This document shows, piece by piece, positions 19,108 through 34,692 of a stretch of DNA of 64,000 nt; positions within the stretch are counted from its first letter, which is position 1, and the number at the start of each line of letters is the position of its first letter. Below the pieces are notes generated by a model. The model did no database searches, was not told the DNA's origin, and saw nothing but the letters and a program-made list of their open reading frames with translations. Origin of the DNA: Bacteriovoracaceae bacterium (GTDB lineage: Bacteria; Bdellovibrionota; UBA1018); contig CANFJX010000007.1 in NCBI GenBank assembly GCA_947447665.1, forward strand, positions 87,441 through 151,440, written 5' to 3'. The position numbers and the translations under genes were made by a program.

Positions 19108-19124
19108 TTTTGGGAGGTGTTGAT

Positions 19125-20663
19125 ATGATCCATCAGTCACGGTTTCAGCCAAAAGTTTTAGGAGACTTCATCTTCGGACAGTTTAAAAAGCCAACAGAGG
19201 CGAGCGGGGAATGGATCAGTCGAAGCCCCGCCTCGTTTTCTGACGAATTGGGGCGTTTTCAGTACTCTTATGCTCACGTCGATGAAGCTGTTCATGTGGC
19301 GCAGGCTGCTTTTCGATCTTGGAAGAAGCTACCGATTTCTGAGCGAGCTGAATTCTTGAAAAAATTTCAAACGGTTCTCAAAAAGAGGGAAGATGAATGG
19401 GTTGAAGCGATCGCTAGGGAGGTGGGCAAGCCTCTCTGGGAAGCTAAAACTGAGCTCTCTGCGATGCTCAATAAGGTTGATATTACCATCCAGGAAAGCA
19501 TGAGGCTGGTGGCTGACTTCGAGATCCCAAAAATTATGGAGCACACGAATGGTGCTTGCCGTTACCGAGCCTTGGGCGTCGTCGCGGTGATTGGACCATT
19601 CAACTTCCCGGGTCATCTGCCAAACGGGCATATTATCCCTTCTCTTCTGACCGGAAATACAGTGGTATTTAAACCCTCCGAAAAGGCCCCATGGGTGGGG
19701 CAGCTCATGGCAGAAAGCTTTCAGGAGGCTGGTCTCCCCCCGGGTGTTTTTAATATGGTCCAAGGGGAGAGGGAAGTGAGCCGGCGCCTGTGTTCACATG
19801 ATGGAGTGCATGGAGTTTTGTTTACGGGTTCCTACGACGTAGGGGTTCAGATTAAGCAGGATACCATCCAGCAGCATTGGAAGCTTTTGGCGTTGGAGAT
19901 GGGCGGGAAAAATCCAGCGATCGTTTGGAAGGATGCGGATCTAGAGAATGCGGTCTATGAGACCCTCATTGGCAGCTTCTTGACTACCGGGCAAAGGTGC
20001 AGTGCAACCAGTCGAATCTTGGTCCATCGTGACCTCTTGGGGCAGTTTTTAGGCCGTTTTCACGAACGTTCGAAGGCATTCAAGATTGGCCATCCTTTTG
20101 AAAATCCGTTCATGGGCCCATTGATTGATCAGGGCTCAGTGGATCGGTATATGAAGTTCCAAGGAATTGCAGCAAGAGAGGGATTTGAGACTGTGATGAG
20201 TGGTAAGGTTTTAGAATTAGCTCATCGCGGAAACTACGTGACTCCGTCCATTGGTCTCATGACGAAGGCAAGTCTCGAGCAAACTCGTAAGAGCATTTAC
20301 CAGCAGACTGAACTTTTTGCCCCGAATGTCGCTATTCTTGCAGTAGACGAATTAGATGAAGCGATTGCCCAGGCGAATGCGACTCAGTTTGGGCTTGCCG
20401 CAAGTGTCTTCAGTCAAAATAGAGCAGTCTATCAACACTGTCTCGATGAGCTTGAGATGGGATTAATTAATTGGAATAAATCAACGGTGGGAGCTTCTTC
20501 GCGACTTCCCTTCGGAGGTCTCAAGAAAAGTGGTAATCATTTCCCAACCGCTCTCGCAGCGCCACTTTATTGTACTACTCCCGTTGCCTCATTGGAAGTT
20601 TCAGAGATTCAGTCGACTTCTGTAAGCGCTTCTAAGACTCCTGGATTGAATTGGGAATCTTAA
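19125..20663 (+). CDS. astD: Succinylglutamate-semialdehyde dehydrogenase
   Basis: GPFNFPGHLPNGHI, LALEMGGKNP, GQRCS and GASSRLPFGG...SGN; follows astA. Confidence 0.88.
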   Translation: MIHQSRFQPKVLGDFIFGQFKKPTEASGEWISRSPASFSDELGRFQYSYAHVDEAVHVAQAAFRSWKKLPISERAEFLKKFQTVLKKREDEWVEAIAREVGKPLWEAKTELSAMLNKVDITIQESMRLVADFEIPKIMEHTNGACRYRALGVVAVIGPFNFPGHLPNGHIIPSLLTGNTVVFKPSEKAPWVGQLMAESFQEAGLPPGVFNMVQGEREVSRRLCSHDGVHGVLFTGSYDVGVQIKQDTIQQHWKLLALEMGGKNPAIVWKDADLENAVYETLIGSFLTTGQRCSATSRILVHRDLLGQFLGRFHERSKAFKIGHPFENPFMGPLIDQGSVDRYMKFQGIAAREGFETVMSGKVLELAHRGNYVTPSIGLMTKASLEQTRKSIYQQTELFAPNVAILAVDELDEAIAQANATQFGLAASVFSQNRAVYQHCLDELEMGLINWNKSTVGASSRLPFGGLKKSGNHFPTALAAPLYCTTPVASLEVSEIQSTSVSASKTPGLNWES

Positions 20664-21173: not shown

Positions 21174-23306
21174 CTAGTGGTGCGATAGGCCAGGTGCGCC
21201 AGGCTGCCCGGGCATGCCTGTGCCGCCGCCCATGCCGCCCATCATAGGGTTCATCATGGGGTTCATGCCCATACCGCCCATGCCACCCATCATAGGGTTC
21301 ATCATGGGGTTCATGCCCATACCGCCCATGCCGCCCATCATAGGGTTCATCATGGGGTTCATGCCCATGCCGCCCATGCCACCCATCATAGGGTTCATTA
21401 TGGGGTTCATCATGCCCATGCCGCCCATGCCACCCATCATAGGGTTCATTATGGGGTTCATCATGCCCATGCCGCCCATGCCACCCATCATAGGGTTCAT
21501 TATGGGGTTCATGCCCATACCGCCCATCATGTTTGGATAGGCTGATCCCGGGTTGAACATCTGTGATTGGGCCATTTGATCGTGGTTATGAATCATCTGG
21601 GTTTCGTTAGCGATTTGAGATGCTCGAATAATCAGATCTCTTTGTGCAATTAAATGGGTACATTCTTCCGAGTTCAAGCTTGCTGCGGTTCGGCACGTGG
21701 TTCGTCTCGCCTGAGTCCATTCCTGTAGCAAAGCGCCTTCTTTCATTTGGATCATCGGAGCAGTTAAGTTGCCTTGTCTCACTTCGGTGTGGAGTCGGTT
21801 GATCTTAAGATCCAGGAGTTTTTGGCCATACTGTTTTCTTGCATCGCTGTCGGATCCATTCATGACATTTTTTTCGACGATTTCAATAGCCTTGCTGCAG
21901 CTTTGGGGCGTTGCTGTTGGGTCATCGCCGTGACAAATTTTATTGGCGAGGTTGATGAGGTGAGCTGTTGCTTGTTTTCTGTGGCGAATATCACCGTGAG
22001 AGTCCAAATTCTCAATAAAGTCTACCAGTCGCCCTCGAATATCCTCAACGCGGTTGATGTCAGCGCTGTTGACCGCGTTTACTTCCATGGCAAATTTTTG
22101 GAGCTGCGATTCCTTAACGTCTTGATCCAGTCGGGATAGTTCATGGTTTCTTTGTTGATGACTAATTTCCTTGAAATCCTTGAAGAGGCTTTCGATTGCG
22201 CTCTTAACGTGATGTTGGGAGTCCTCGGTTCGGCAGTAGGGGGAGTTGAGTGTTCGCTTAAGATTAGCTATTTCCCAATTTTTTGCCCGGGTTTCTGTTT
22301 TTTCTAGTTCTTCTCTGTCGTGAGCATCAACAGCTGCTTTGTCCTCGGCAGTCTGAAAGTGGAGAGGGCTTTCGAGCTCTTCGCATTTGATTTTCCTGTT
22401 GGCTTCATCATAATGAGCAATCGAGATTTTGCCCGACTTTCCGATTTCTTTTAGTTTAATGACCGATGCAATTTTGCCCGAGAGTTGACTCCAGTTTGCT
22501 TTAGGGGAGAATTCGGGCAAAAAAGGACCCTGTTTTTGCATAGCCTGAATGCAAGACTCTGCCTTGCCATCGGTGTCATAAAACTGGATCGCCCGTAGGG
22601 TTTCTCCACACTGAGCTTGATCATAAGTTGGACTTGAATCGGGAGCCTTCCAATCGATCTTCAAAGAATCTAAACAGGACTTCGGGAGCTCTCCTGATAC
22701 TTTGACAAAGTTTTGGCTGTCGATTGTAATTGCAAAGCTTGGAATGAGTTCCTGTAAGTCCTTGAGACCCCAAGTCCTCGATTTTCCAACCGGGGCTTCT
22801 TGTGTATTGGATGCCGTCGCCTCTTGCGGGTTGGCTTCATTCTCTATCTTCGTTTTAATTTCTGTGAGTGAGCTCCAGGCTCGATCTAACTCTTTATGTA
22901 ATTGCTCCTGATGAACTGATGCGCTCTTCTTGATTGCCTCTAAAAATGCGGGCTCTAAATGTGGCTGAAGATTGCGTAGTTCGCCGAGTTCCTGGATACC
23001 TAGGCCTTCGAGGCATTTTCTTCCCTGGTCCAAAAGATTTCTACGGTAGTCGATTGATCCGACCTCTTTGATCTTGTTCAAGGTTTTCTCGCAACCTTCT
23101 AGATCGGTTTTAAGTTTTGTAAGCGTACCTGAATATTGGGAAATGACGGAGTTGATTGCGGGTTCACCGGTGTTCTTGAATTGGCCTATCCAAGAATAAC
23201 GCTCTGTTTCACTAGGCCATGTATCGAGTGCAAATGCTTGAGGAGAAGCCAAAGCGAGTCCCAAGCAGGCTAATCCGATTTTGAAATTCTTTTTATCACT
23301 CAACAT
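21174..23306 (-). CDS. Large secreted hypothetical protein with C-terminal Met/Gly tandem repeats
   Basis: AAGGAG SD before ATG 23306; Sec signal ending in AFA; helical Cys-containing body; repeat tail. Confidence 0.85.
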   Translation of the reverse strand: MLSDKKNFKIGLACLGLALASPQAFALDTWPSETERYSWIGQFKNTGEPAINSVISQYSGTLTKLKTDLEGCEKTLNKIKEVGSIDYRRNLLDQGRKCLEGLGIQELGELRNLQPHLEPAFLEAIKKSASVHQEQLHKELDRAWSSLTEIKTKIENEANPQEATASNTQEAPVGKSRTWGLKDLQELIPSFAITIDSQNFVKVSGELPKSCLDSLKIDWKAPDSSPTYDQAQCGETLRAIQFYDTDGKAESCIQAMQKQGPFLPEFSPKANWSQLSGKIASVIKLKEIGKSGKISIAHYDEANRKIKCEELESPLHFQTAEDKAAVDAHDREELEKTETRAKNWEIANLKRTLNSPYCRTEDSQHHVKSAIESLFKDFKEISHQQRNHELSRLDQDVKESQLQKFAMEVNAVNSADINRVEDIRGRLVDFIENLDSHGDIRHRKQATAHLINLANKICHGDDPTATPQSCSKAIEIVEKNVMNGSDSDARKQYGQKLLDLKINRLHTEVRQGNLTAPMIQMKEGALLQEWTQARRTTCRTAASLNSEECTHLIAQRDLIIRASQIANETQMIHNHDQMAQSQMFNPGSAYPNMMGGMGMNPIMNPMMGGMGGMGMMNPIMNPMMGGMGGMGMMNPIMNPMMGGMGGMGMNPMMNPMMGGMGGMGMNPMMNPMMGGMGGMGMNPMMNPMMGGMGGGTGMPGQPGAPGLSHH
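21225..21530 (-). repeat. Coding tandem repeat, unit about 48-51 bp (MMGGMGGMGMNPMMNP), six units plus a partial unit
   Basis: Directly visible repeated catcatagggttcat/gcccat units; unit lengths 13, 17, 17, 16, 16 and 16 codons. Confidence 0.97.
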
Positions 23307-23364
23307 AAGCGTAACTCCTTCAACTGAGGCATTGAGAGAAAGACCTTCTCTCGGGAGTACATAG

Positions 23365-23381
23365 AGCAAGGGGTAGGCCAA
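23365..23381 (-). promoter_or_regulatory. Sigma54 (-24/-12) promoter for the Met/Gly-repeat gene
   Basis: Minus strand TTGGCCTACCCCTTGCT matches TGGC-N7-TTGC with exact GG-N10-GC spacing, about 60 nt upstream of the ATG. Confidence 0.65.
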
Positions 23382-23568
23382 GTTTGATGGGCTGTGTAAA
23401 TTTATATTTATCTTATTATTTCAATTACTTGCAGATCTATTAAATAGCTATAGAGCTTAGCTTGATGTGTGAGTTATGAAGGTTTGTCGATAAAATCGAC
23501 ACGCAAACTTGCGTCCAGTCGCTTGCCTTGTTAAGCTCGCCCCACGTGAAGCAAAAAGGGAGATTCCT

Positions 23569-24630
23569 ATGGTTTTCAAGCAAATGCAGCCAAGTGGTTT
23601 TGAGCAAGTGGTCTTCTGTCAGGACGATCGGGTTGGACTGAGAGCGATTATTTCGATTCACTCTTCAGTCCTGGGGCCTGCCACAGGTGGCTGCCGCATG
23701 TGGAATTACGCCACCGAAGAAGAAGCACTTACGGACGTACTCCGGCTCTCTGAAGGAATGACTTATAAAGCGGCTATGGCCGGTTTGGACTGGGGCGGAG
23801 GCAAGGGCGTGATTTTGGGAGACCCAAAAACTCAGAAGACTCCTGAGATGCTTCAAAGATTTGGGGAATACGTAGATCGCTTGGGTGGTCATTACATTAC
23901 AGCCAAAGATGTTGGCATGGGCGCGGATGATTTGCGCCAAGTCAAACGAAAGACCCGCCACGTTTTAGGAATTGAAGGTGATCCAGGATCCAGCGGCGAT
24001 CCGTCCCCAGCTACCGCTTGGGGAGTTTACCATGGGATGCAATCAGCTGCTCAAGTCGCATTTCAGGCGCGCTCCTTGAAGGGGCTGAGAGTGGCGCTTC
24101 AGGGGTTGGGGAGCGTTTCCTACTACTTGCTCGATTATTTGGTGAAAGAAGGCGCCCATGTGGTGGGTTGCGATATTGATTCCGCTATGGTCGAGCGAGC
24201 GGTTAAAAAATTTGGAATTGAGATCGTCCATCCGGATGCGATATATGATGTGAAGTGTGATATTTTTTCACCCTCGGCTCTCGGCTCTTCAGTGAATCCG
24301 AAGACTCTCCCGAGGATCCAGGCTAAAGTGATCGCAGGCGGGGCTAATAACCAATTGGCAACACTGGAAGAGGGCTATGAGATCATGCGAAGGGGAATGG
24401 TCTATGTCCCTGATTATGTCATCAATGGCGGGGGCCTGATTAATATTTATTATGAGGATCCAATTCGTGGGGGTTATTCCAAGTCTCGAGCTTTTGATCA
24501 TGTCGCCAAAATCGGCCAAACCGTGCTGGAAATTCTCGAGCGGTCGAAGAGCGAAAAGACTCCGTCTCAGATCATCGCGAACCGAATGGCTGAAGAGCGG
24601 ATTGAGAAGAAGCGCAGAAGTATCTCGTAA
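23569..24630 (+). CDS. Leu/Val/Phe dehydrogenase family amino acid dehydrogenase
   Basis: GPATGGCRM, MTYK...GGGKGVI, SGDPS..TA.GV, QGLGSV and GGANNQL. Confidence 0.92.
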   Translation: MVFKQMQPSGFEQVVFCQDDRVGLRAIISIHSSVLGPATGGCRMWNYATEEEALTDVLRLSEGMTYKAAMAGLDWGGGKGVILGDPKTQKTPEMLQRFGEYVDRLGGHYITAKDVGMGADDLRQVKRKTRHVLGIEGDPGSSGDPSPATAWGVYHGMQSAAQVAFQARSLKGLRVALQGLGSVSYYLLDYLVKEGAHVVGCDIDSAMVERAVKKFGIEIVHPDAIYDVKCDIFSPSALGSSVNPKTLPRIQAKVIAGGANNQLATLEEGYEIMRRGMVYVPDYVINGGGLINIYYEDPIRGGYSKSRAFDHVAKIGQTVLEILERSKSEKTPSQIIANRMAEERIEKKRRSIS

Positions 24631-24642
24631 GAGGGCGCTATC

Positions 24643-25689
24643 ATGAGTTCCTTTCGGCCGTCTGATCGATTTGGAATTCAAAGAGTCCTCCTCCCCTCTG
24701 GAGTTCTGCCCCAACAGGCAGACCAGTTGGATCCAGCATTGCCGATCGCAGAAGATGAGCTTCTGATTGAAGTCGAAAGCCTGAATATTGACTCCGCAAG
24801 TTTTCATCAGATTTCAACCGTGTGCGGGGGGGATTTGTTGAAAATAGAGAAGCACATCGTGGATTTAGTCAAACGACGTGGCAAGCATCATAACCCTGTG
24901 ACTGGATCTGGGGGGATGCTAATTGGTCGGGTCACAGCGGTGGGTCCAGCCTTTCCGGTGAGAGAAAAACCAGTACAAGTCGGGGACCGAATCGCCACTT
25001 TAGTTTCCCTCTCTCTCACCCCTCTTGAGATTCGGAAAGTAAAACGAATTCATCCTAAGGTTGACCGAGTAGATATCGAGGGACATGCGATTTTGTTTGC
25101 ATCGGGCCTTTTTTCCCTTCTTCCATCAGATTTGCCCGAATCACTCGCCCTAGCGGTTCTGGACGTTGCAGGTGCTCCCGCTCAGACTCGACGATTGGTG
25201 CAGGCAAACCAAACGGTAGTCGTGATTGGGGGTGGGGGTAAGTCGGGAGTGCTTTGTCTTTATGAGGCTAAGAAGAGTCTGGGTGTCACGACGATCGCTA
25301 TTGATTATTCCGACGCAGGGATTGATCGCCTCAAGACTCTGCCCTTTGTGGATCAGGTAATTCAAGCGGATGCTAGAAATGCTGTTGAGGTGATGAAGAA
25401 AGTATCTGACGCGACCCAAGGGCAAATGGCTGATCTAGTGATTAATGTTGCTAACCTCCCTGAGACTGAAATGTCGAGTGTGTTGAGTTGTAAACGAGGG
25501 GGAGCAGTTTATTTTTTTAGTATGGCCACCAGCTTTACGCGGGCTGCTCTCGGTGCTGAGGGTGTCGGAGCGGATGTGGACTTGAGGATTGGAAATGGTT
25601 ATACCTCTGGCCACGCTCAGCTCGCCCTGGATTTAATTAGGGAAAGTAAGATATTAAGAAAGTTATTTACCGACGTTTATTGCAGTTGA
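24643..25689 (+). CDS. kdd: L-erythro-3,5-diaminohexanoate dehydrogenase
   Basis: LNIDSASF, RGKHHNPVTGSGGML, ATLVSLSLTPL, LDVAGAPAQ and FFSMATSF..AALGAEG. Confidence 0.93.
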   Translation: MSSFRPSDRFGIQRVLLPSGVLPQQADQLDPALPIAEDELLIEVESLNIDSASFHQISTVCGGDLLKIEKHIVDLVKRRGKHHNPVTGSGGMLIGRVTAVGPAFPVREKPVQVGDRIATLVSLSLTPLEIRKVKRIHPKVDRVDIEGHAILFASGLFSLLPSDLPESLALAVLDVAGAPAQTRRLVQANQTVVVIGGGGKSGVLCLYEAKKSLGVTTIAIDYSDAGIDRLKTLPFVDQVIQADARNAVEVMKKVSDATQGQMADLVINVANLPETEMSSVLSCKRGGAVYFFSMATSFTRAALGAEGVGADVDLRIGNGYTSGHAQLALDLIRESKILRKLFTDVYCS

Positions 25690-25728
25690 GTTGTTTGGCG
25701 CGGTGCTCGAATTAAAGGGGAAGTGGTG

Positions 25729-27294
25729 ATGAGTCATCTTCATTTAGATCAAGCTTTAGTAAAGCAGTGTAGAAATCTGGCCAGGGAAATCGCGAGGCCA
25801 GTGGAAAAACTCATCGACGATCATACCACCGTCGCCATCGAGCGCGCTACGCTGAGGTTGATAGGTATTGAAGGAGCCGTGCAGTCTAACAGCCAGTGGG
25901 TGCCTCAAGTCAATCTGATCATTGAAGACCTGCAAAAAGATGGCGTCTTAGGGCGCGGGGCTCTTTACTGGTTCGCCAACGGAATGATTCAAACCAAAAT
26001 GAGCGCTGTTGATCTCGGCGAGGCGGTAGCCAAGAAAAAGCTGAAGCTGCCTGAGCTTCAGCAGGCGCCGGAGAAGGAGATTCGAGAAAAAGCGCTAAAC
26101 CTATGCCAACTCGCTCGCGCTAATCTGGTCAGTCAACGTGAAATGCGGGATTCGCTTCGCTCTGAATTGAAAGACTCATTTGATCCACAAGGTAAAAATG
26201 GGCCGATCCTGTATGTAATTGTTGCTACTGGAAATATTTTTGAAGACGTCATTCAGGCCCAGGCGGCAGCACAGGCTGGCGCCGATGCGATCGCCGTGAT
26301 TCGAAGTACTGCGCAGTCGCTCCTTGATTTTATCCCTCATGGTGCCACCACGGAGGGATTTGGTGGGACCTACGCCACCCAGGAAAATTTTCGGATCATG
26401 AGAAAGGCATTAGATGAAGAGGGTCGAAGGCTGGGTCGCTACATTCGCCTCACCAATTATTGTTCAGGGCTTTGTATGCCAGAAATTGCAGCGCTGGGTG
26501 CTCTAGAACGGCTGGATTTTCTATTAAACGACGCGATGTATGGGATTTTGTTCAGAGACATCAACATGAAGCGAACGTTAATTGACCAGCACTTTTCTAG
26601 AAAAATTATTGCCCTTTCGCGAATCGTAATTCATACAGGCGAAGATAACTATCTCACTACCGCCGACGCAGTTGAGAATGGGCACCAAGTTCTAGCATCC
26701 CAATTCATTAACGAGTGCTTTGCAAAGCATGCAGGAATGACGGAGGACCTCATGGGGCTCGGTCATGCTCAGGAGATGGATCCCGAGCATCCCGATGTGT
26801 TTCTTTTGGAGATTGCCCGAGCTCAGATGACCCGTGATATTTTTCCAGAGTCTCCGATTAAGTTTATGCCTCCTACCCGATTTAAGTGCGGAGATATCTT
26901 TTATAGTCACTTGATGGACGCCATGTTTAACTTCGTCGGAGTCTTAACTGGACAAACGATTCAGCTCCTGGGAATGCCAACTGAGGCGATGCATACGCCA
27001 CTTTTGCAGGACCGTTGGATGAGCATTAAGAATGCAAAATATATTTTTAATGGCGCTAAAAATCTGGGTAGAGAAATCGAGTTTAAGCAAGGTGGAGTAA
27101 TTGAAAGTTGGGCGTCGAAGGTACTAAAAGACACTCATGGGCTCCTGAGTTTGATTCATCAAAAGGGCCTTTTCCAGGCGATTGAAGAGAGGGCCTTTGC
27201 TGAAGTGAAGCGCACCGAAACTGGCGGTAAAGGTCATGATGGTGTGATCCCAAGGGATTCGCAGTACTTGAATCCTTTTTTTGAATTGTTATAG
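25729..27294 (+). CDS. kamD: D-lysine/beta-lysine 5,6-aminomutase alpha subunit
   Basis: HTTVAIER, YVIVATGNIFED, AVIRSTAQSLLD, GFGGTYATQENF, NYCSGLCMPE and YGILFRDIN. Confidence 0.95.
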   Translation: MSHLHLDQALVKQCRNLAREIARPVEKLIDDHTTVAIERATLRLIGIEGAVQSNSQWVPQVNLIIEDLQKDGVLGRGALYWFANGMIQTKMSAVDLGEAVAKKKLKLPELQQAPEKEIREKALNLCQLARANLVSQREMRDSLRSELKDSFDPQGKNGPILYVIVATGNIFEDVIQAQAAAQAGADAIAVIRSTAQSLLDFIPHGATTEGFGGTYATQENFRIMRKALDEEGRRLGRYIRLTNYCSGLCMPEIAALGALERLDFLLNDAMYGILFRDINMKRTLIDQHFSRKIIALSRIVIHTGEDNYLTTADAVENGHQVLASQFINECFAKHAGMTEDLMGLGHAQEMDPEHPDVFLLEIARAQMTRDIFPESPIKFMPPTRFKCGDIFYSHLMDAMFNFVGVLTGQTIQLLGMPTEAMHTPLLQDRWMSIKNAKYIFNGAKNLGREIEFKQGGVIESWASKVLKDTHGLLSLIHQKGLFQAIEERAFAEVKRTETGGKGHDGVIPRDSQYLNPFFELL

Positions 27295-27307
27295 GAATAG
27301 GTCCCAT

Positions 27308-28096
27308 ATGAGTTCACAAGTCGCAGAAGTCAATCTTAAGAAATTGCGTCCATACGGCGATATCATGGATGATGGTACTGTTCAGCTTGCTTTTACATTG
27401 CCGGTGGAGGCATCACCTGAGGCTCGCGAGGCGGCGGTGCTACTCACTCAAAAAATGGGTTTTGAGCAGGTCAAGGTTGCAACGATGGAAAAGGCTGCGA
27501 ACGGTTTTTCTTTTTTTGTCATTTACGCGAAGCTCAAACACACAATCGATTTCACGCAAATTAGCGTGTTGAAGGTGGACGCTCCAAAACGGGCTCGAGA
27601 TGAAGTTGACGAAATCATTCGGACCCAGATTGGTCGCAAGTTAATCGTTTTAGGGGCCTGCACTGGGTATGACGCCCATACAGTGGGTATTGACGCGATT
27701 ATGAATATGAAAGGCTTCGCAGGTGATTATGGCCTGGAGAGATATCAGTGGCTCGACGCTAGAAATCTCGGAGCACAAGTTCAAAATGAAGATTTGCTTA
27801 AATTGGCGGTGCAAGAGAAGGCTGATGCGATTTTGATTTCAAAGGTAGTGAGCCAACACAATATTCATATCAAAGATATGAAGGAACTCATTCAGAGGGC
27901 TGAGAAAATGGGTCTGAAGGACCAACTTATATTTGTCGCGGGCGGGCCTCGTGTGACCCATCCAATGGCTTTAGAGTGCGGTTTTGATGCAGGATTCAGT
28001 GTGGGTACCAAACCCTCGGATGTGGCGAGTTATATTGTCGAGGAGTTTCTACGGAGACGATCACGCCGTGCAGGCAAAAAGGAAGAACCATCGTGA
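27308..28096 (+). CDS. kamE: Lysine 5,6-aminomutase beta subunit (B12-binding)
   Basis: RPYGD..DDG.VQLAFTLP; DAHTVG (DxHxxG cobalamin His); MNMKG (PLP Lys). Confidence 0.95.
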   Translation: MSSQVAEVNLKKLRPYGDIMDDGTVQLAFTLPVEASPEAREAAVLLTQKMGFEQVKVATMEKAANGFSFFVIYAKLKHTIDFTQISVLKVDAPKRARDEVDEIIRTQIGRKLIVLGACTGYDAHTVGIDAIMNMKGFAGDYGLERYQWLDARNLGAQVQNEDLLKLAVQEKADAILISKVVSQHNIHIKDMKELIQRAEKMGLKDQLIFVAGGPRVTHPMALECGFDAGFSVGTKPSDVASYIVEEFLRRRSRRAGKKEEPS

Positions 28097-28998
28097 AAAA
28101 GAGTGCAACCCCGCAGAGTTCGATCGTCGGTCGCGAAGCAGAGCTCTTGCGTCTGAGAGCTTGTCTGAGGGCTGGAAAAAATGTTTTGCTTGAGGGGCCT
28201 GTCGGAGTCGGCAAAACGAGTCTGGCCTTAGAAATCACCCGAGAGCTGAAGAGCCTGGTTTTTCGAGTGGATGGGGATAATCGCTATTCCGAGCAGAAGT
28301 TGTCCGGATGGTTTGATCCTCCGAGTGTGATTCAGAAGGGATATACGGCAGAGACTTTTATGCCAGGGCCGCTCGTAGAGGCCATGCAAAAAGGTGGAGT
28401 GCTTTTTATAAATGAGTTGAACCGATTGCCTGAGGGCGTACAGAACGTTCTTCTCCCAGCTATCGATGAGCGGCTCATTGAGGTTCCGAGACTTGGGGAG
28501 ATTCGCGCTGAGAGGGGATTTCTAGTTATTGCCACCCAAAATCCAAAGGAATTTGTGGCGACCTCGCATTTGAGTGAGGCTGTTCTGGATCGCTTCGAGC
28601 TGATTGTTCTGGACTATCAGACTGAAGAGGAGGAGACCGAGATTGTTGCCCAACGATTAGCTCCGGGGTCCTCTGATATTCTTGAGGATCGACGACTGGC
28701 TCAGGCATCCGTTAAATTGATTCGCCTCACTCGTGACCATCCCCGAGTTCGCAGAGGTGCGTCCGTGCGAGCAGCACTGAGTGTCGCTGAGATTACGAAA
28801 GAACTTGTCTCATCAGGAATGTCGATGGAGGAGGCCTTTCTTCAAGCCGCACTTCTCGCTCTTCCGACTCGAATCGAGTTTGAGAGGGACGCCGAATCGG
28901 ACTTAACGCTTCGTGCAGAGATGGAAGCTTTACTCAAGGAGTGGACCGATCTCGTTTGGCAGGAGTTGGCGGATCCGTCCTTAAAAAAAAAACGCTAG
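28093..28998 (+). CDS. MoxR-like AAA+ ATPase (frame-0 product)
   Basis: Walker A GPVGVGKT, Walker B-like LFINE-LNR, ATQNP, EAVLDRF and GASVRA; GTGA overlap with the kamE stop. Confidence 0.9.
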   Translation: MKKSATPQSSIVGREAELLRLRACLRAGKNVLLEGPVGVGKTSLALEITRELKSLVFRVDGDNRYSEQKLSGWFDPPSVIQKGYTAETFMPGPLVEAMQKGGVLFINELNRLPEGVQNVLLPAIDERLIEVPRLGEIRAERGFLVIATQNPKEFVATSHLSEAVLDRFELIVLDYQTEEEETEIVAQRLAPGSSDILEDRRLAQASVKLIRLTRDHPRVRRGASVRAALSVAEITKELVSSGMSMEEAFLQAALLALPTRIEFERDAESDLTLRAEMEALLKEWTDLVWQELADPSLKKKR

Positions 28999-29028
28999 CT
29001 TCAGAGCCAGCTTTGGCTGAGCCGAGCG
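28983..29028 (+). other. Candidate programmed -1 frameshift or transcriptional slippage site (A10 run plus downstream stem-loop)
   Basis: TTA AAA AAA AAA CGC TAG in frame 0; the -1 frame reads on into the vWA ORF; AGCCA-gctt-TGGCT stem at 29005-29018. Confidence 0.65.
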
Positions 29029-30020
29029 GGCATGCTTTTAAAAGTTCACTCAGTTTCTCGAAGGAAGTTTACCAACGCTCGGAGCCTCTGTTTTTCCCAC
29101 CGGAGGCTTTTGGGAACGTATTTAGCTCCGAAGCAGATGAGGACCACCCAGAATTTAAGGGCTCCAATCACTGGGATATTGCTACTCGCTACCACGAGTT
29201 TAAGGGCAAACGAGTGAGCCAGAATCTGATTCGCAAGCTCAGGGCGTTATCAGCGCAGGCCATTTTAGATCGAGCCCAAGAAGTGTTGGGTTCAGTCGTG
29301 CATCCCTTTCATCGTCATACCTCTCTCTGGAATGATGTGCCCGCCCAGGCGATGGATGTCGATTTTGATTTGGATGAGACCTTGGAACTCTCTCCATTGG
29401 TACTTAAGGATGCTACGACTCGCGAGGCGAGTCGCTTTCCGTTGACTGAACAGGATCTCTGGATGAGTTATTCAGTTCGCCGTACCCAACCCTTGGTCAT
29501 AACTGTTGATACGAGTCTTTCAATGACGGGAGAAAAGCTCGCTCTCACAGCAGTTGCGATTGCTGTGGTACTTCTAGAGTTTCCTGAGGATCCGATCGGC
29601 ATCGTCGCGTTCGAGAATGAGGCTAAGATCTTGAAGCGCCCCGATGAGAAGATTTCGATTCCTCAGTTGGTTGAAAGATTTTTGGACGTTCCGGCTCAAG
29701 GTTATACCCACCTCGAAGAGGGCATGAAGTGCGCCCTCAAGCTTGTTCAGGAAGTTCAGAAAATGGGAAGTGGGAAAATCCCCTCCACTGTCCTTCTTAC
29801 AGATGGAAAATACACCGCAGGTAGAGACCCTGCCTACCTTGCACCTCGGTTTCCTCACCTAGTAATTCTCAAAATGGGTCGAGAGACCTCGAGCCTAGAG
29901 CTTTGCTTGGAAATGGCAAGGAAGGGCAGTGGAGCCCTGCGTGAAGTCGAGGATCTCAACTCGCTACCTAAGGTCATGTATGGCGTGGTCAAGGACCTCA
30001 TCCGCGGCCGTCGGAGCTAG
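28992..30020 (+). CDS. von Willebrand factor A (MIDAS) domain protein, probably the C-terminal part of an AAA+-vWA fusion
   Basis: MIDAS elements VDTSLSM, GYTHL and LLTDG; no well-spaced SD or start (ORF track begins at GTG 28941). Confidence 0.85.
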   Translation, partial: TLASEPALAEPSGHAFKSSLSFSKEVYQRSEPLFFPPEAFGNVFSSEADEDHPEFKGSNHWDIATRYHEFKGKRVSQNLIRKLRALSAQAILDRAQEVLGSVVHPFHRHTSLWNDVPAQAMDVDFDLDETLELSPLVLKDATTREASRFPLTEQDLWMSYSVRRTQPLVITVDTSLSMTGEKLALTAVAIAVVLLEFPEDPIGIVAFENEAKILKRPDEKISIPQLVERFLDVPAQGYTHLEEGMKCALKLVQEVQKMGSGKIPSTVLLTDGKYTAGRDPAYLAPRFPHLVILKMGRETSSLELCLEMARKGSGALREVEDLNSLPKVMYGVVKDLIRGRRS

Positions 30021-30854: not shown

Positions 30855-32831
30855 TTAGGGAGTGGACTGGTCGATCAACTCGGCTATGTCCATCACCTTG
30901 ACCTTGTCCTGCATTTCTTTAGATTTAACGCCGTCGGTGAGCATAGTCATGCAGAAAGGGCAGGATGATGCGACAATTCCTGCTCGGGTCTCGAGAGCCT
31001 GTTCGGTTCGTTTAACGTTAATTCGGGTCCCAATTTTTTCTTCCATCCACATTCGCCCGCCGCCGGCACCACAGCACATGCTGTCGTCGTGATTGCTCTT
31101 CATCTCTACCAAGTTAATGGAGGGCAAGGACTGGAGAACGGCTCGGGGCTGTTCGTAGACGCTGTTCCAACGCCCGAGATAGCAGCTGTCATGGAAAGTG
31201 ACTGATTCATCCAATGTCTTAGTTGGCTTGATTTTACCCTGAGTTACCAGTTGGGCGATGAATTGGGAGTGATGGTGGACCTCGTAATGGCCGCCAAAGT
31301 CCTTATATTCGTTTTTGATTGTGTTGAAACAGTGTGGGCAGGCCGTTACGATTTTTTTGACTTGGTAACGATTGAGGGTCTCAATGTTGGCTTTAGCGAG
31401 GGTTTGGTAAAGGTACTCGTTACCGATTCTTCGCGCCGGATCTCCCGTGCACTGTTCTTCTGTTCCAAGAATAGCAAATTTCACATTCGCCTTCTTGAGG
31501 ATGCTTGCAAAGGCTCGGAGGACTTTTTTATTTCGATCATCATAAGAGCCAGCGCATCCAACCCAAAGGAGTACATCTACTTGCGAGTCCTCGGCCATGG
31601 TCTTGACATTTAATCCCTCGGCCCAGTTGCCTCGGTCCGAGGATGCAAATGCCCACGGGCTAGCGTTGTTTTCCATGTTCTTAAAAACAGTCTGAACTTC
31701 CGCAGGAAACTTAGACTCCATCATGACGAGATTGCGACGGATGTCATAGATCTTATCCGTGTGCTCGATAAAGACTGGACACGCGATCTCACAAGCTCGG
31801 CATGAGGTACAAGCCCAAATCACGTCTTCGGTTAGATGTTGATCAATGATTGGAGACACTTCTTCCAGCTTCCCGGCAAGAATTTTTTCCTTATTGTGAT
31901 AAAGATTGTTCTTCAAATCTAGAATCAGCATTTTTGGGGTGAGCGGTTTTCCTGTATTATGGGCCGGGCAGACATCTTGGCAGCGGCCACACTCTGTACA
32001 TGAGTAATAATCCAACGCGTCTTTCCAACTCAAGTCAGTTATTTTGGCAGCCCCATATTGCTGAACGGATTCGTCCTCGAATGGAATCGGTTTCATCGCT
32101 TTTTCGCGAGGAAGTGTTTTCAGAAAGGTATTCGGTCCAGCAGCTACGATATGGAGATGTTTAGAGCTCGGGATATAAATCGCAAAGCTGAGCACGATAC
32201 TCATGTGTACCCATTTAAAAAGGGTACTAAGAGCCCCGTTGAACTCGGGAGTCAGTCCAAGATCCTTTAAGAAATAGGCGACCAAGCGAGAGATAGGCAT
32301 CGAGCTCTGGTACCAAGGCTCCGCGCTTAAAATATGAAATCCATTCATCAAAAGAATTGAAATCATCAGGGAGCCAGTCAGAGTTAGAACGATGGTGGCA
32401 TCCTTAGACTTGCCTAGGCCCTCGGGACGGATAATCAATCTACGGTAAAAGGCGTAGCCCACAGCAAGTAGTACTAGAAGAGTAAGAATGTCTTGCACCA
32501 TGACTAGGGCGGAGTAGGCGCCTTCTCCGATGAACTCAAAACTAGCGCCTTGGTATAAAGTGCCAGCGAACTGTTCTAGCGTTCCCACAGTGATGATGAG
32601 GAATCCCCAGAAGATGGTCGCATGCATGATGCCTGCAGCTCTTTTTTTGAGTACTGCTTTCTGACCCAGGACATTAGCGATCGTTGTCAGAATTCGCTCT
32701 GGAATGCGATCCAGTCGATTGGCCTTCCCTTGATGATTTTTCATCAAACGATAGAGGAGACTGAATCGGTAGCCTGAATAACTAAAAGTAGACCCTGCCA
32801 GCACTAAGAATAGATAAGTTTGCCATGTCAT
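30855..32831 (-). CDS. fadF: Membrane Fe-S oxidoreductase, FadF/HdrD-like (putative ETF:quinone oxidoreductase)
   Basis: N-terminal TM cytochrome-b-like domain, two CxxCxxCxxxCP ferredoxin motifs, two CCG domains; adjacent to etfAB. Confidence 0.88.
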   Translation of the reverse strand: MTWQTYLFLVLAGSTFSYSGYRFSLLYRLMKNHQGKANRLDRIPERILTTIANVLGQKAVLKKRAAGIMHATIFWGFLIITVGTLEQFAGTLYQGASFEFIGEGAYSALVMVQDILTLLVLLAVGYAFYRRLIIRPEGLGKSKDATIVLTLTGSLMISILLMNGFHILSAEPWYQSSMPISRLVAYFLKDLGLTPEFNGALSTLFKWVHMSIVLSFAIYIPSSKHLHIVAAGPNTFLKTLPREKAMKPIPFEDESVQQYGAAKITDLSWKDALDYYSCTECGRCQDVCPAHNTGKPLTPKMLILDLKNNLYHNKEKILAGKLEEVSPIIDQHLTEDVIWACTSCRACEIACPVFIEHTDKIYDIRRNLVMMESKFPAEVQTVFKNMENNASPWAFASSDRGNWAEGLNVKTMAEDSQVDVLLWVGCAGSYDDRNKKVLRAFASILKKANVKFAILGTEEQCTGDPARRIGNEYLYQTLAKANIETLNRYQVKKIVTACPHCFNTIKNEYKDFGGHYEVHHHSQFIAQLVTQGKIKPTKTLDESVTFHDSCYLGRWNSVYEQPRAVLQSLPSINLVEMKSNHDDSMCCGAGGGRMWMEEKIGTRINVKRTEQALETRAGIVASSCPFCMTMLTDGVKSKEMQDKVKVMDIAELIDQSTP

Positions 32832-32840
32832 AGCGAACTG

Positions 32841-32869
32841 ATCTTAATCAGAACAGAACTTGAATACAA
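32841..32869 (-). promoter_or_regulatory. Sigma70-type promoter, near-leaderless
   Basis: TTGTAT-N17-TAAGAT, 9 nt before ATG 32831; no SD. Confidence 0.55.
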
Positions 32870-32937
32870 CCTGCATTTATTGCAGATGGCATCGAGAGCT
32901 CGAACGGTTAATGTCCGCACTCTGCGGGTTGCCGAGG

Positions 32938-33906
32938 TCAGTGCTCTTTAATTTTTTTGAGCTCTTCACGTAGGAGTGGGATAATCGCAAATAAGTCACC
33001 CACGAGTCCATAATCAGCGAGCTGGAAAATAGGGGCCTCTGGATCAGTATTGATCGCTACAATGACTTTTGAGGTTCTCATCCCGGCCAGATGCTGAATG
33101 GCTCCGCTAATTCCGCAGGCAATGTAGAGTGACGGAGAGACAACCTTCCCGGTCTGGCCTACTTGGTCGCGGTGGGGACGGAAGCCGGCATCAACGGCTG
33201 CCCGAGATGCTCCGACGGCAGCCCCAATCACGTCGGCTGTGTCTTCCAGGATTTTGAAATTCTCCGCGTTCTTGAGAGATCGGCCACCTGAGATGACGAT
33301 GGAGGCCTCGGTGACGTCGGGTCTTGCACTGTTCCCTTTCACCACCTCAATAACTCGCGTCGCGAGTGTTCCGAGATCTACGCTAGTTGTCGAGATCTCA
33401 GCGGTTTTAGAAGTATCGGGTTTGGGGATTCCTAATGCGTTTTGTCGGAAAGTTGCAACGCGAGGTCCAGAACCCAAAAATTCGACCTCAACGGTTGCTT
33501 TGCCAGCATAAACAGGCCGCCTGACCTTGATTTGATCCCCTTCGAAGGTCAGTTGAGTGCAATCACTGGCCAGACCGACACCGAGCTTGGCGGCGAGCCG
33601 AGGCATGAGATCCCGTCCGGTCGGAGTGTGGCTGGCCAAGATTACCGAGGGAGAAAGTGATTGAATGAGCGGAAAGAGGATTTTCGAGTAAGCCTCTGAA
33701 GTGTAAAATTTTAAGCCAGCATTTTCAGCCAAGTGAACTTTTTTTGCGCCGTAATGGGCAAGCTCCTGAGCCAGTCCAGCGACGCCTTCGCCGAGCAGGG
33801 CCACATGAGTTTCATTTCCGGCGGCTGCCGAAGCCCCGACGAGCTCGAAAGTTGATCTTTTAAGTCGCCCGTCCCGTTGTTCTGCGATCACTAATACTTT
33901 GCTCAT
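32938..33906 (-). CDS. etfA: Electron transfer flavoprotein alpha subunit
   Basis: GASRAAVDAG, QVGQTGKVV.P.LYIACGISGAIQHLAGM. Confidence 0.97.
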   Translation of the reverse strand: MSKVLVIAEQRDGRLKRSTFELVGASAAAGNETHVALLGEGVAGLAQELAHYGAKKVHLAENAGLKFYTSEAYSKILFPLIQSLSPSVILASHTPTGRDLMPRLAAKLGVGLASDCTQLTFEGDQIKVRRPVYAGKATVEVEFLGSGPRVATFRQNALGIPKPDTSKTAEISTTSVDLGTLATRVIEVVKGNSARPDVTEASIVISGGRSLKNAENFKILEDTADVIGAAVGASRAAVDAGFRPHRDQVGQTGKVVSPSLYIACGISGAIQHLAGMRTSKVIVAINTDPEAPIFQLADYGLVGDLFAIIPLLREELKKIKEH

Positions 33907-33908
33907 AA

Positions 33909-34682: not shown

Positions 34683-34692
34683 AGTTTCCTTC

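What the first reader, a model, noticed from the sequence alone, without database searches (positions are those of the whole stretch)
23569..30020. AAA+/vWA module coupled to B12-dependent lysine 5,6-aminomutase: possible new reactivase or maturation chaperone
Seen: the ATPase start overlaps the kamE stop (GTGA, 28093-28096), and the ATPase-vWA unit ends the run dehydrogenase-kdd-kamD-kamE. The vWA domain has an intact MIDAS (DTSLS, T, TDG). No kamB/kamC-like or MeaB-like gene is in the window. Established: AdoCbl mutases undergo suicide inactivation and need NTP-dependent cofactor-exchange helpers. MoxR/vWA pairs (CbbQO, NorQD, RavA-ViaA, CobST) remodel or metallate neighbouring enzymes. Inference: this pair services KamDE by cobalamin or PLP exchange, or acts as a CobST-like cobalt chelatase module.
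Basis: inference. Interest (0 to 1): 0.78.

Follow-up and report, generated by a model that had tools for sequence, protein, structure and literature searches.

The report
Frameshift-joined ATPase-vWA gene beside lysine aminomutase
Right after the genes for a vitamin-B12-dependent lysine aminomutase sits what looks like two genes but is one gene read in two ways (a motor ATPase, and the same ATPase fused to an adaptor domain by slipping on a run of ten A's), and in this bacterial phylum it takes the place of the enzyme's usual repair proteins, so it is probably an undescribed helper of that enzyme.

Summary
In detail: ELFV-dehydrogenase, kdd, kamD, kamE, then a MoxR-type (AAA_5) ATPase whose GTG overlaps the kamE stop, then a vWA domain with an intact MIDAS.

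Two things change the picture.
- The ATPase and vWA "genes" are one recoded gene. The vWA frame is the -1 frame, open across an A10 run at the ATPase 3' end. This layout recurs in 22 of 22 and 55 of 58 unfused related loci. 18 archaeal relatives are single fused ORFs. This resembles frameshifted chlD, but it is a different AAA family and the genome has no CobN.
- Linkage to kamDE is strong within Bdellovibrionota. Of 401 sampled genomes, 100 have kamD. 91 of those also have this ATPase, 83 directly downstream. Seven others have KamB/KamC-like genes instead, and none has both.

The family is not exclusive to kamDE: 31 of 122 phylum genomes, and all archaeal copies examined, carry it without kamDE.

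Best reading: a KamBC-replacing, ATP-driven helper or reactivase of KamDE. Recoding about 0.9, helper role about 0.55. No experiment exists, and complex prediction gave no answer. This scan has flagged the same module on other genomes before.

The parts
23509..24630 (+). ELFV-family amino-acid dehydrogenase, first gene of the run. It is conserved upstream of kdd in several families of the phylum. Its substrate is unknown.
   Evidence: PF02812 96.7 bits and PF00208 59.4 bits. The best NCBIfam hit, Trp_DH_ScyB, scores 355 bits, below its cut-off of 600. Homologues lie upstream of kdd or directly upstream of the ATPase in L004, L013, L015, L021, L022.
24643..25689 (+). kdd, L-erythro-3,5-diaminohexanoate dehydrogenase.
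   Evidence: NF052381, 247.7 bits, cut-off 200.
25723..27294 (+). [quoted passage not shown]
   Evidence: PF09043 762.8 bits. NF052384 763.1 bits, cut-off 600.
27281..28096 (+). [quoted passage not shown] Its TGA stop overlaps the GTG of the ATPase.
   Evidence: NF052385 344.5 bits, cut-off 280. PF16554 and PF02310. The junction reads ...catcGTGAaaa.
28093..28998 (+). Zero-frame ORF of the recoded gene: a MoxR-type AAA_5 ATPase of 301 aa (the short product). Walker A is GPVGVGKT. Walker B is LFINE, with Asn where Asp is usual. The C-terminus is ...LKKKR.
   Evidence: PF07728 75.9 bits. Translation. N107 and E108 are invariant in 12 relatives and the motif is seen in all 23 aligned copies. The closest solved single domain by sequence is NorQ, 49.7 bits.
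28983..28992 (+). A10 run, the proposed -1 slip site (ribosomal -1 frameshift or one extra A added by RNA polymerase).
   Evidence: It is one of only 7 homopolymer runs of 10 in the 2.53-Mb genome, and none is longer. Contigs of 4 runs from 3 studies are identical, with no indel. An A9-A10 run is conserved at this place in 22 of 22 loci. Over 67 unfused sites the lengths are A9 in 36, A10 in 27, A11 in 2 and A7 in 2.
28992..30020 (+). The -1 frame part (342 codons plus stop): a disordered linker, a conserved helical module (FxPPE, WDxAxRYH) and a vWA domain with MIDAS. It is read as the C-terminal part of an ATPase-vWA fusion of about 640 aa. The frame itself is open from 28884.
   Evidence: Frame relation. 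Conserved motifs lie upstream of any start codon in relatives. PF13519 37.2 bits. The AlphaFold model has mean pLDDT 82.7; residues 1-50 score low and the rest is folded. Fold matches include NorD VWA and the Rea1/midasin MIDAS domain. The natural one-ORF fusion L026 is co-linear with both parts.

Best explanation
Positions 28093-30020 are one recoded gene.

Standard reading gives a 301-aa MoxR-type (AAA_5) ATPase that ends just after an A10 run. A -1 shift on that run continues into the -1 frame and gives an ATPase-linker-vWA fusion of about 640 aa. The shift could be ribosomal slippage or one extra A added by RNA polymerase. One gene would thus supply both the ring subunit and an adaptor-bearing subunit, in a ratio set by the slip rate, as ChlI and ChlD do or as CbbQ6 and CbbO1 do.

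In Bdellovibrionota this gene is transcribed with kamD-kamE and is often translationally coupled to kamE. It stands where other lysine-fermentation clusters have the KamB/KamC reactivase.

Inferred mechanism:
- The vWA MIDAS docks on an acidic residue of KamDE.
- ATP hydrolysis in the AAA ring pulls open the B12-binding domain.
- Damaged cobalamin, formed by the enzyme's known suicide inactivation, leaves, and fresh adenosylcobalamin enters. A PduO-type adenosyltransferase is encoded elsewhere in the genome.

Shown: the gene anatomy, conservation of the recoding signal, the linkage to kamDE, and the mutual exclusion with KamBC-like genes.
Inferred: that the slip occurs in vivo, that the product binds KamDE, and that the effect is reactivation rather than first loading or assembly.

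My odds: recoding about 0.9; functional partner of KamDE about 0.55-0.6; reactivation specifically about 0.4.
For: Recoding:
- The vWA frame is -1 relative to the ATPase frame and is open across the ATPase stop in 22 of 22 loci, with an A9-A10 run in 22 of 22.
- In an independent scan of 80 loci, 76 hold both parts: 55 are -1 with an A run, 18 are fused single ORFs, 2 are +1 and 1 is same-frame with a stop.
- In 7 of 22 loci there is no ATG/GTG/TTG for 48-145 codons after the run. Two motifs shared across the family (FxPPE, WDxAxRYH) lie in the -1 frame after the run, within that start-less stretch in the loci where it is longest.
- A one-ORF fusion in the same phylum (L026, 657 aa) aligns at residues 33-295 to the ATPase (E 1e-81) and at 370-643 to the -1 part (E 2e-22).
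- Neighbouring genes use AAG as often as AAA for Lys (100 against 81), and only 7 runs of 10 exist in the genome.
- The A10 is identical in contigs of 4 runs from 3 studies.
- Precedent: -1 frameshifting at poly-A in 'magnesium chelatase' genes gave 10-63% in E. coli reporters (PMC3711429, passages read).

Link to KamDE:
- In the 401-genome phylum sample the ATPase is in 122 genomes, kamD in 100 and both in 91. They share contig and strand, ATPase downstream, in 83 of 91, and in 80 the gap is 757-1117 nt. The 8 unlinked cases are on different, mostly short contigs.
- The four-gene core kamD-kamE-ATPase-vWA keeps its order although the flanks differ. Some families have an OmpR-type regulator and a PilZ gene upstream. 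Others have kdd upstream and kce directly downstream.
- kamE stop and ATPase start overlap as NTGA in 27 of 49 kamE-linked loci.
- KamC-like genes occur in 7 of 401 genomes, all directly upstream of kamD and all without the ATPase. No genome has both.
- So 98 of 100 kamD genomes have one or the other. The remaining 2 have kamD within about 170 nt of a contig end.
- The own genome has no KamB, no true KamC and no GlmL.

Need for a helper: 5,6-LAM has an ATP-dependent activating protein E2, and recombinant KamDE suicide-inactivates (review PMC3958899, passages read).
Against: - The family is not specific to KamDE. 31 of 122 ATPase-bearing genomes in the sample have no kamD. In all 10 such genomes whose locus I examined (two were also refetched), the gene is intact with its A run and motifs although kamDE is missing. 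For example, the ELFV dehydrogenase is directly followed by the ATPase in L004, L013 and L015, and the PilZ gene by the ATPase in L028. So it has, or also has, another role.
- All 18 fused archaeal copies, and bacterial copies outside the phylum, lack kamDE. Their neighbours are heterogeneous: kinase, GNAT, M55 peptidase, aminotransferase, SNF2 helicase, NUDIX. In the 2 archaeal genomes where the copy's position on the same contig could be compared (of 5 searched), the nearest B12-binding domain is 15-28 kb away.
- All kamDE-linked copies appear to come from one phylum, so shared ancestry inflates the counts.
- Part of the neighbourhood (AstA, AstD, M20 upstream; HdrD-like downstream) is also conserved without kamDE.
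- There is no RNA, protein or biochemical evidence for the slip or for any interaction.
- No conserved downstream RNA structure (mean z 0.0) and no conserved SD-like stimulator (18 of 67) support classical ribosomal frameshifting.
- Walker B carries Asn instead of Asp in every copy. The effect on ATPase activity is unknown.
Confidence: 0.55

Rival explanations
1. The recoded ATPase/ATPase-vWA is a general-purpose MoxR-vWA remodeller with other or several clients. Its place behind kamDE in Bdellovibrionota is inherited gene order, not a dedicated partnership.
For: 31 of 122 genomes carry it without kamD. Intact copies remain where kdd-kamDE are precisely missing (L004, L013, L015, L028, L053). 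Paralogous copies sit in unrelated contexts (L024-L026). Archaeal fused copies have no kamDE or adjacent B12 gene. Kin share gene order.
Against: The four-gene core survives complete turnover of its flanks across class-level divergence, at about 53-55% protein identity. NTGA coupling to kamE occurs in 27 of 49 loci. In some families the gene lies between kamE and kce, inside the pathway operon (L020-L022). It is mutually exclusive with KamBC-like genes, with no genome of 401 holding both. 98 of 100 kamD genomes have one or the other.
Confidence: 0.25
2. It does serve KamDE, but as an assembly or first-loading chaperone (inserting adenosylcobalamin or PLP, or assembling the alpha2beta2 enzyme) rather than as a reactivase that removes damaged cofactor.
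For: The closest characterised relatives mature enzymes rather than repair them. NorQ/NorD is the best solved match by sequence, and the NorD VWA is among the fold matches. That NorQD inserts FeB into nitric oxide reductase and that CoxD/E mature CO dehydrogenase are recalled, not from a call. The genomic evidence cannot separate loading from reactivation.
Against: It replaces KamBC, which NCBIfam names a reactivase. Recombinant KamDE assembles and is active without helpers in E. coli, yet suicide-inactivates (PMC3958899).
Confidence: 0.15
3. It is a ChlI/ChlD- or CobS/CobT-type chelatase motor that inserts cobalt or another metal, that is, a member of the frameshifted chlD family.
For: It shares the architecture and the recoding trick (an AAA part, then a vWA part reached by -1 at poly-A), as in PMC3711429 and PMC9227772. 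The weak hits to TIGR02442 are co-linear: the ATPase on model positions 97-220 and the vWA on 434-583. The vWA's only sequence hit in the PDB is BchD (E 0.0039).
Against: No CobN/ChlH is found in the genome. TIGR02442 scores 34.5 and 35.2 bits against a cut-off of 779, and BchD and BchI models score 34 and 22 bits. PF01078 matches only 40 residues around Walker A (24.8 bits), while AAA_5 scores 75.9.
Confidence: 0.03
4. They are two ordinary genes. The A run only encodes a lysine-rich tail, and the vWA protein starts at its own GTG or TTG, or by reinitiation.
For: In the window a GTG (28941) and a TTG (about 29012) exist in the vWA frame. Several relatives have a start codon within 8-28 codons after the run. 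No expression data exist.
Against: The frame relation is -1 in 22 of 22 and 55 of 58 unfused loci, where a third would be expected by chance. The run is kept as pure A although AAG is the commoner Lys codon nearby. In 7 of 22 loci 48-145 codons after the run have no start codon. Fused one-ORF forms are common. The AGGAG in the window abuts GTG 28941 with no spacer.
Confidence: 0.05

Closest known systems
NorQ/NorD and CbbQ/CbbO (MoxR-type AAA+ ring plus vWA adaptor that remodels or matures a neighbouring enzyme)
   Same: A small AAA_5-type ATPase and a vWA/MIDAS partner are encoded next to the client enzyme. NorQ is the best solved single-domain match by sequence (49.7 bits). NorD VWA chains are among the fold matches of the vWA model.
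   Different: The client would be a B12/PLP aminomutase. The adaptor is much smaller (about 340 aa) and is not a separate protein: it is reached by a -1 shift from the ATPase frame. Walker B has Asn instead of Asp. The functions of NorQD and CbbQO are recalled, not tested here.
Frameshifted chlD (fs-chlD) of Mg/Co chelatases (Antonov et al. 2013, PMC3711429; Kuznetsov et al. 2022, PMC9227772)
   Same: One gene gives a short AAA+ subunit and a long AAA+-vWA subunit by -1 recoding on a poly-A run. Fused one-ORF relatives exist. Both halves are about 1 kb.
   Different: The AAA domain is AAA_5/MoxR-type, not ChlI-type. The chelatase models score far below their cut-offs. There is no CobN/ChlH in the genome. 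The genomic partner is kamDE. Whether their clusters already include this family could not be checked, because the supplements are closed.
KamB/KamC, the lysine 5,6-aminomutase reactivase as named by NCBIfam (NF052386, NF052383)
   Same: It sits beside kamDE and contains an ATPase. The two are mutually exclusive in the phylum sample. Both would answer the enzyme's biochemically known need for an ATP-dependent activating protein (PMC3958899).
   Different: There is no sequence relationship. KamC is MutS-like (PF00488) and KamB is a separate 300-330-aa protein. KamBC lies upstream of kamD, and this gene lies downstream of kamE.
Midasin/Rea1 (AAA_5 ring joined to a C-terminal MIDAS domain)
   Same: AAA_5 domains and a MIDAS/vWA domain lie in one polypeptide. 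Midasin AAA domains match the ATPase at 31-35 bits each. The Rea1 MIDAS domain is among the fold matches.
   Different: Midasin is a eukaryotic protein of about 4,700-4,900 residues with six AAA domains in one chain, and it acts in ribosome biogenesis (function recalled). This gene is a single AAA module that must oligomerise, and the fusion is made by recoding.

Membership tests
MoxR-type AAA+ ATPase (Pfam AAA_5) | AAA_5 domain with Walker A and Walker B | tested here: met
   PF07728 scores 75.9 bits over profile positions 1-139 of 139. Walker A is GPVGVGKT. Walker B is present but reads hhhhNE instead of hhhhDE, invariant in relatives. Midasin has DE at that position.
MoxR-vWA remodeller pairs (NorQD/CbbQO type) | vWA partner with a complete MIDAS, encoded beside the ATPase | tested here: met
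   DxSxS, T and D are invariant (D173, S175, S177, T239, D271). The vWA fold model has pLDDT 82.7. It matches NorD VWA.
MoxR-vWA remodeller pairs (NorQD/CbbQO type) | physical and functional interaction with the neighbouring client enzyme | not testable with these tools
   Only genomic linkage is available. This needs pull-down and activity assays.
Frameshifted chlD / ChlD-ChlI chelatase subunits | -1 recoding at an A-rich slippery run that joins the AAA part to the vWA part | tested here: met
   Signature present in 22 of 22 and 55 of 58 unfused loci. This is a sequence signature only; expression was not tested.
Frameshifted chlD / ChlD-ChlI chelatase subunits | ChlI-type AAA domain (PF01078) and a score over the family models' cut-offs | tested here: not met
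   PF01078 scores 24.8 bits over 40 residues. TIGR02442 scores 34.5 and 35.2 bits (cut-off 779), TIGR02031 34.3 (cut-off 499.55) and TIGR02030 21.6 (cut-off 466.95).
Frameshifted chlD / ChlD-ChlI chelatase subunits | large catalytic subunit CobN/ChlH in the genome | tested here: not met
   PF02514 has no match in the 95.5%-complete genome, while the control rang in 5 of 14 known genomes.
KamB/KamC reactivase | homology to NF052383 (KamC, MutS-like ATPase) and NF052386 (KamB) | tested here: not met
   The window proteins do not hit these models. In the genome, KamB has no match, and KamC has only sub-cut-off hits on 905-aa and 813-aa MutS-type frames. The models do recognise the KamBC-like genes of other Bdellovibrionota at 105-146 bits, below their cut-offs.
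GlmL/MutL- or DdrAB-type B12 reactivases; MeaB-type G-protein chaperones | PF13941 (MutL/GlmL) or PF03308 (MeaB) beside the mutase | tested here: not met
   PF13941 has no match in the genome. One MeaB lies on another contig (C3:57016-57798), not beside kamDE.

The most novel reading that the evidence does not exclude
This is a third, unrelated class of ATP-driven reactivase for an adenosylcobalamin enzyme, beside the DdrAB/GlmL type and the MutS-like KamBC. It would be a 'mini-midasin' whose ring and adaptor subunits come from one gene, with their ratio set by slippage on an A9-A10 run. The MIDAS would grip KamDE and the AAA ring would pull the B12 domain open to expel cob(III)alamin. The kamDE-less copies would then be the same machine working on other cofactor enzymes.
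Probability: 0.35. Interest if true: 0.8.

Novelty: new variant of a known kind. Interest (0 to 1): 0.62.

Why it matters
Lysine 5,6-aminomutase inactivates itself during turnover. Since the 1970s it has been known to need an ATP-dependent activating protein (review PMC3958899, passages read).

If this recoded ATPase/ATPase-vWA gene does that job in Bdellovibrionota, three things follow:
- It adds a mechanistically different solution to B12-enzyme repair.
- It gives MoxR-vWA remodellers a new kind of client.
- It offers a helper that might stabilise the enzyme for biocatalysis.

Independently of function, the conserved A9-A10 recoding site shows that the ChlI/ChlD 'two subunits from one gene' design also operates in a MoxR/AAA_5 family in bacteria and archaea. 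It also shows that genome annotation splits this gene wrongly into two.

In the searchable library I found no paper that links a MoxR/vWA gene to lysine aminomutase. The search listed 5 papers and I read none of them; by title none concerns this. Searches also gave nothing on it. This scan has flagged the same module on other genomes before.

Tried and rejected
- Complex prediction of KamD + KamE + vWA domain (residues 145-342 of the -1 part, own alignments A2-A4) scored 0.00 in both runs. The verdict was 'no answer', so it counts neither for nor against binding.
- Sequencing runs: 5 DNA holders in 3 studies (lake or freshwater metagenomes), and no RNA holder listed. Expression and RNA-level slippage therefore could not be examined. 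Laying the contigs only showed that the A10 is stable.
- I searched for a common client outside kamDE. Neighbours of archaeal and other kamDE-less copies are heterogeneous, and no B12-binding gene lies adjacent in the 2 archaeal genomes where the copy's position could be compared, of 5 searched.
- I looked for frameshift stimulators. The 50 nt downstream of the run are no more structured than shuffles (mean z 0.0, n=67), and an SD-like motif lies upstream in 18 of 67. This leans towards transcriptional slippage or unstimulated slippage but decides nothing.
- An ATPase tree (FastTree, midpoint root, supports not inspected) shows kamDE-linked copies in at least five clades interleaved with kamDE-less ones. 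I did not test gains against losses formally.
- Literature: one search was wasted on word-start matches. One search found nothing. One search found only the unrelated rRNA methyltransferases KamB/KamC.
- I did not survey kamDE loci in other phyla, so mutual exclusion with KamBC is shown only within this phylum sample.

Full report
**What is there**

The window region 23509-30020 carries, on the + strand:
- an ELFV-family dehydrogenase (23509-24630);
- kdd (24643-25689; NF052381, 247.7 bits, cut-off 200);
- kamD (25723-27294; 763 bits);
- kamE (27281-28096; 344.5 bits);
- an AAA_5/MoxR-type ATPase ORF (28093-28998; PF07728, 75.9 bits);
- a vWA domain ending at 30020 (PF13519, 37.2 bits).

The GTG of the ATPase overlaps the TGA of kamE (GTGA, 28093-28096).

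The window is G000:C7:87441-151440 of a 2.53-Mb, 21-contig genome that is 95.5% complete. Names attached to close homologues point to Bdellovibrionota (Bacteriovoracaceae/Oligoflexia MAGs).

**The ATPase and vWA "genes" are one recoded gene**

The ATPase ORF ends ...TCC TTA AAA AAA AAA CGC TAG. The vWA frame is the -1 frame and is open from 28884, so it runs across the A10 run at 28983-28992. The only start candidate upstream of the run, GTG 28941, has its AGGAG directly abutting it (read).

First set of loci. I examined 22 loci: the window plus 21 loci taken from a phylum-wide genome sample. They were chosen for other reasons and include kamDE-linked, kamDE-less and paralogous copies.
- The vWA frame is -1 and open across the ATPase stop in 22 of 22.
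- An A9 or A10 run lies there in 22 of 22.
- In 7 of 22 there is no ATG/GTG/TTG for 48-145 codons after the run. Two motifs shared across the family (FxPPE and WDxAxRYH) lie in the -1 frame after the run, and fall within that start-less stretch in the loci where it is longest.

Second set of loci. An independent scan of species-representative genomes with an ATPase alignment returned 80 loci.
- 4 lack a vWA match within the locus.
- Of the other 76, 55 have the -1 arrangement with an A run, 18 are single fused ORFs of about 600-650 aa (the ones whose titles I checked are archaeal MAGs), 2 are +1 and 1 is same-frame with a stop.
- Over 67 unfused sites the run is A9 in 36, A10 in 27, A11 in 2 and A7 in 2. 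Some genomes were fetched by both routes.

Further support:
- A one-ORF fusion within the same phylum (L026, 657 aa) is co-linear with both window parts: residues 33-295 against the ATPase (E 1e-81) and residues 370-643 against the -1 part (E 2e-22).
- The genome has only 7 homopolymer runs of 10 and none longer. Nearby genes use AAG (100) slightly more than AAA (81) for lysine. A pure-A KKK kept across class-level divergence is therefore not drift.
- Contigs of four public runs from three studies carry the stretch with no difference or indel, so the A10 is not a one-off assembly error. Those runs may include the source of this DNA.
- I found no conserved downstream structure (mean z 0.0) or SD-like element (18 of 67). 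This fits transcriptional slippage or unstimulated -1 slippage, but I cannot tell which.

The design is known from another family. 'Magnesium chelatase' (chlD) genes use -1 recoding at poly-A to make a ChlI-like and a ChlD-like subunit from one gene, with 10-63% efficiency in E. coli reporters (PMC3711429, passages read; PMC9227772, introduction and results read).

**It is not a chelatase**
- PF01078 matches only 40 residues (24.8 bits).
- TIGR02442 gives 34.5 and 35.2 bits against a cut-off of 779.
- PF02514 (CobN/ChlH) has no match in the genome, although the control rang in 5 of 14 known genomes.
- By sequence the nearest solved single domain is NorQ (49.7 bits). Midasin's higher total is the sum of several AAA domains of 31-35 bits each.
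- The AlphaFold model of the -1 part (pLDDT 82.7) has about 50 low-confidence residues, then a helical module and a vWA fold. Its matches include NorD VWA and the Rea1/midasin MIDAS domain among generic vWA domains.
- One peculiarity: Walker B reads LFINE, with Asn where Asp is usual. This holds in every copy aligned, whereas midasin has DE there.

**Linkage to kamDE**

In a sample of 401 genomes of the phylum:
- The ATPase (E <= 1e-40) is in 122 and kamD (PF09043) in 100. 91 have both.
- In 83 of these 91 the ATPase lies on the same contig and strand downstream of kamD. In 80 of them the gap is 757-1117 nt, the size of kamE. In the other 3 it is 2.6-4.2 kb.
- The 8 unlinked cases have the two genes on different, mostly short contigs.

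The flanks change completely while the core kamD-kamE-ATPase-vWA stays the same:
- In two families of another class the core is preceded by an OmpR-type regulator and a PilZ protein, with no kdd nearby.
- In three other families it is preceded by kdd (with the ELFV dehydrogenase upstream in two of them), and kce follows the vWA part directly.

The kamE stop and a start codon in the ATPase frame overlap as NTGA in 27 of 49 kamE-linked loci.

**Mutual exclusion with KamBC**

Nine kamD genomes lack the ATPase.
- In seven of them, all of one family, a 525-560-aa MutS-like gene sits directly upstream of kamD, preceded by a gene of about 300-330 aa.
- For two of these genomes NCBIfam identifies the pair as KamC-like (NF052383; 145.8 and 127.6 bits, below the cut-off of 300) and KamB-like (NF052386; 126.8 and 105.5 bits, below 210).
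- Perret et al. 2011 (PMC3149608, passages read) show 'HP' and 'mutS' genes in lysine-fermentation clusters.
- No genome of the 401 has both the KamC-like gene and the ATPase.
- The remaining two kamD genomes have kamD within about 170 nt of a contig end.

The own genome has no KamB, only MutS-type sub-cut-off hits for KamC and no GlmL. It does have:
- a PduO-type adenosyltransferase;
- a MeaB on another contig;
- a KamA-like gene;
- kce on contig 18.

The enzyme's need for a helper is established. 5,6-LAM has an ATP-dependent activating protein E2, and recombinant KamDE suicide-inactivates (PMC3958899, passages read).

**What speaks against a dedicated role**
- 31 of the 122 ATPase-bearing genomes have no kamD.
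- In all 10 such genomes whose locus I examined (two were also refetched), the recoded gene is intact, with its A run, Walker A and MIDAS. In several, kdd-kamDE are cleanly missing. The ELFV dehydrogenase is followed directly by the ATPase in L004, L013, L015 and L053, and PilZ by the ATPase in L028.
- Some genomes have a second, paralogous copy elsewhere (L024, L025, L026).
- The copies in one kamDE-less family resemble that paralogue in their motifs (my reading) and sit in the same part of the tree as it.
- Outside the phylum the family occurs in Thermoplasmata, Methanobacteriota, Hadarchaeota, Myxococcota, Thermoleophilia and other MAGs at 49-57% identity, none with kamDE.
- Their neighbours are heterogeneous. 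In the two archaeal genomes, of five searched, where the copy's contig position could be compared, the nearest B12-binding domain is 15-28 kb away.
- On a quick ATPase tree, kamDE-linked copies fall in at least five clades interleaved with kamDE-less ones (supports not inspected).

So KamDE in this phylum practically never stands without either this gene or KamBC. The gene, however, can stand without KamDE. This is the pattern of a remodeller recruited by a client, not of a strictly dedicated subunit.

**Verdict**

I hold the recoding at about 0.9, on sequence evidence only. I hold a functional partnership with KamDE at about 0.55-0.6, and reactivation proper at about 0.4.

The chelatase reading is nearly excluded. 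The complex prediction gave no answer and there is no RNA run, so both stand under Tried and rejected.

The same module, and in two cases the frameshift, were noted before by this scan on other genomes. I reached the frameshift independently. I took from those notes only the NCBIfam accessions of KamB/KamC, which I then tested.

In the searchable literature I found no paper linking a MoxR/vWA gene to lysine aminomutase (listings only for the last three). Supplements of the frameshift papers, which might list this family, were closed.

Noticed in passing
window 28093-28998 (Walker B at residues 103-108, LFINE): The Walker B aspartate is replaced by asparagine (hhhhNE) in every copy of this ATPase family that I aligned: 23 sequences, with N107 and E108 invariant in A1. 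Midasin AAA domains aligned to it have DE. The consequence for Mg/ATP handling is unknown.
   Followed up: partly
window 16586-20663 and 30855-34721: The kam-ATPase unit lies between two conserved blocks. Upstream is an arginine-succinyltransferase-type block: M20 peptidase, AstA, AstD-like aldehyde dehydrogenase. Downstream, convergent, is an HdrD-like CCG/4Fe-4S protein (30855-32831, minus strand) with two further conserved genes (32938-33912, 33909-34721). This frame persists in relatives of the same order even where kamDE is missing, so part of the synteny is inherited.
   Followed up: partly
window 23509-24630: The ELFV-family dehydrogenase resembles Trp/Leu/Phe dehydrogenases but scores below the cut-off (ScyB model 355 bits, cut-off 600). 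It heads the kdd-kamDE run in several families, and it stays directly upstream of the ATPase where kdd-kamDE are missing. Its substrate in a lysine pathway is unexplained.
   Followed up: no
window 21174-23381 (minus strand): This 735-aa ORF has no Pfam or NCBIfam match, and BLAST found no homologue at the same place in the related loci.
   Followed up: no
G000 genome, e.g. C2:132108, C3:132472, C3:179330, C5:89480, C9:103367, C13:13148: Six other homopolymer runs of 10 (A or T) exist in the genome, plus 61 runs of 9. Any that lie inside coding regions could mark further slippage sites.
   Followed up: no
L016-L019, L027, L028 (other class of the phylum): Here kamD-kamE-ATPase-vWA is preceded by an OmpR-type response regulator and a PilZ-domain protein. 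This hints at c-di-GMP or two-component control of the module. kdd is not adjacent.
   Followed up: no
L064:6974 onward (755-aa ORF): In one bacterial copy outside the phylum, the ORF covering the vWA match is much longer (755 aa). This suggests extra C-terminal domains.
   Followed up: no
L045, L091, L066: Three loci break the rule. L045 (A9) and L091 (A11) have the vWA frame at +1, and L066 has a same-frame stop and a split ATPase match. They could be run-length variants, assembly errors or decaying copies.
   Followed up: no
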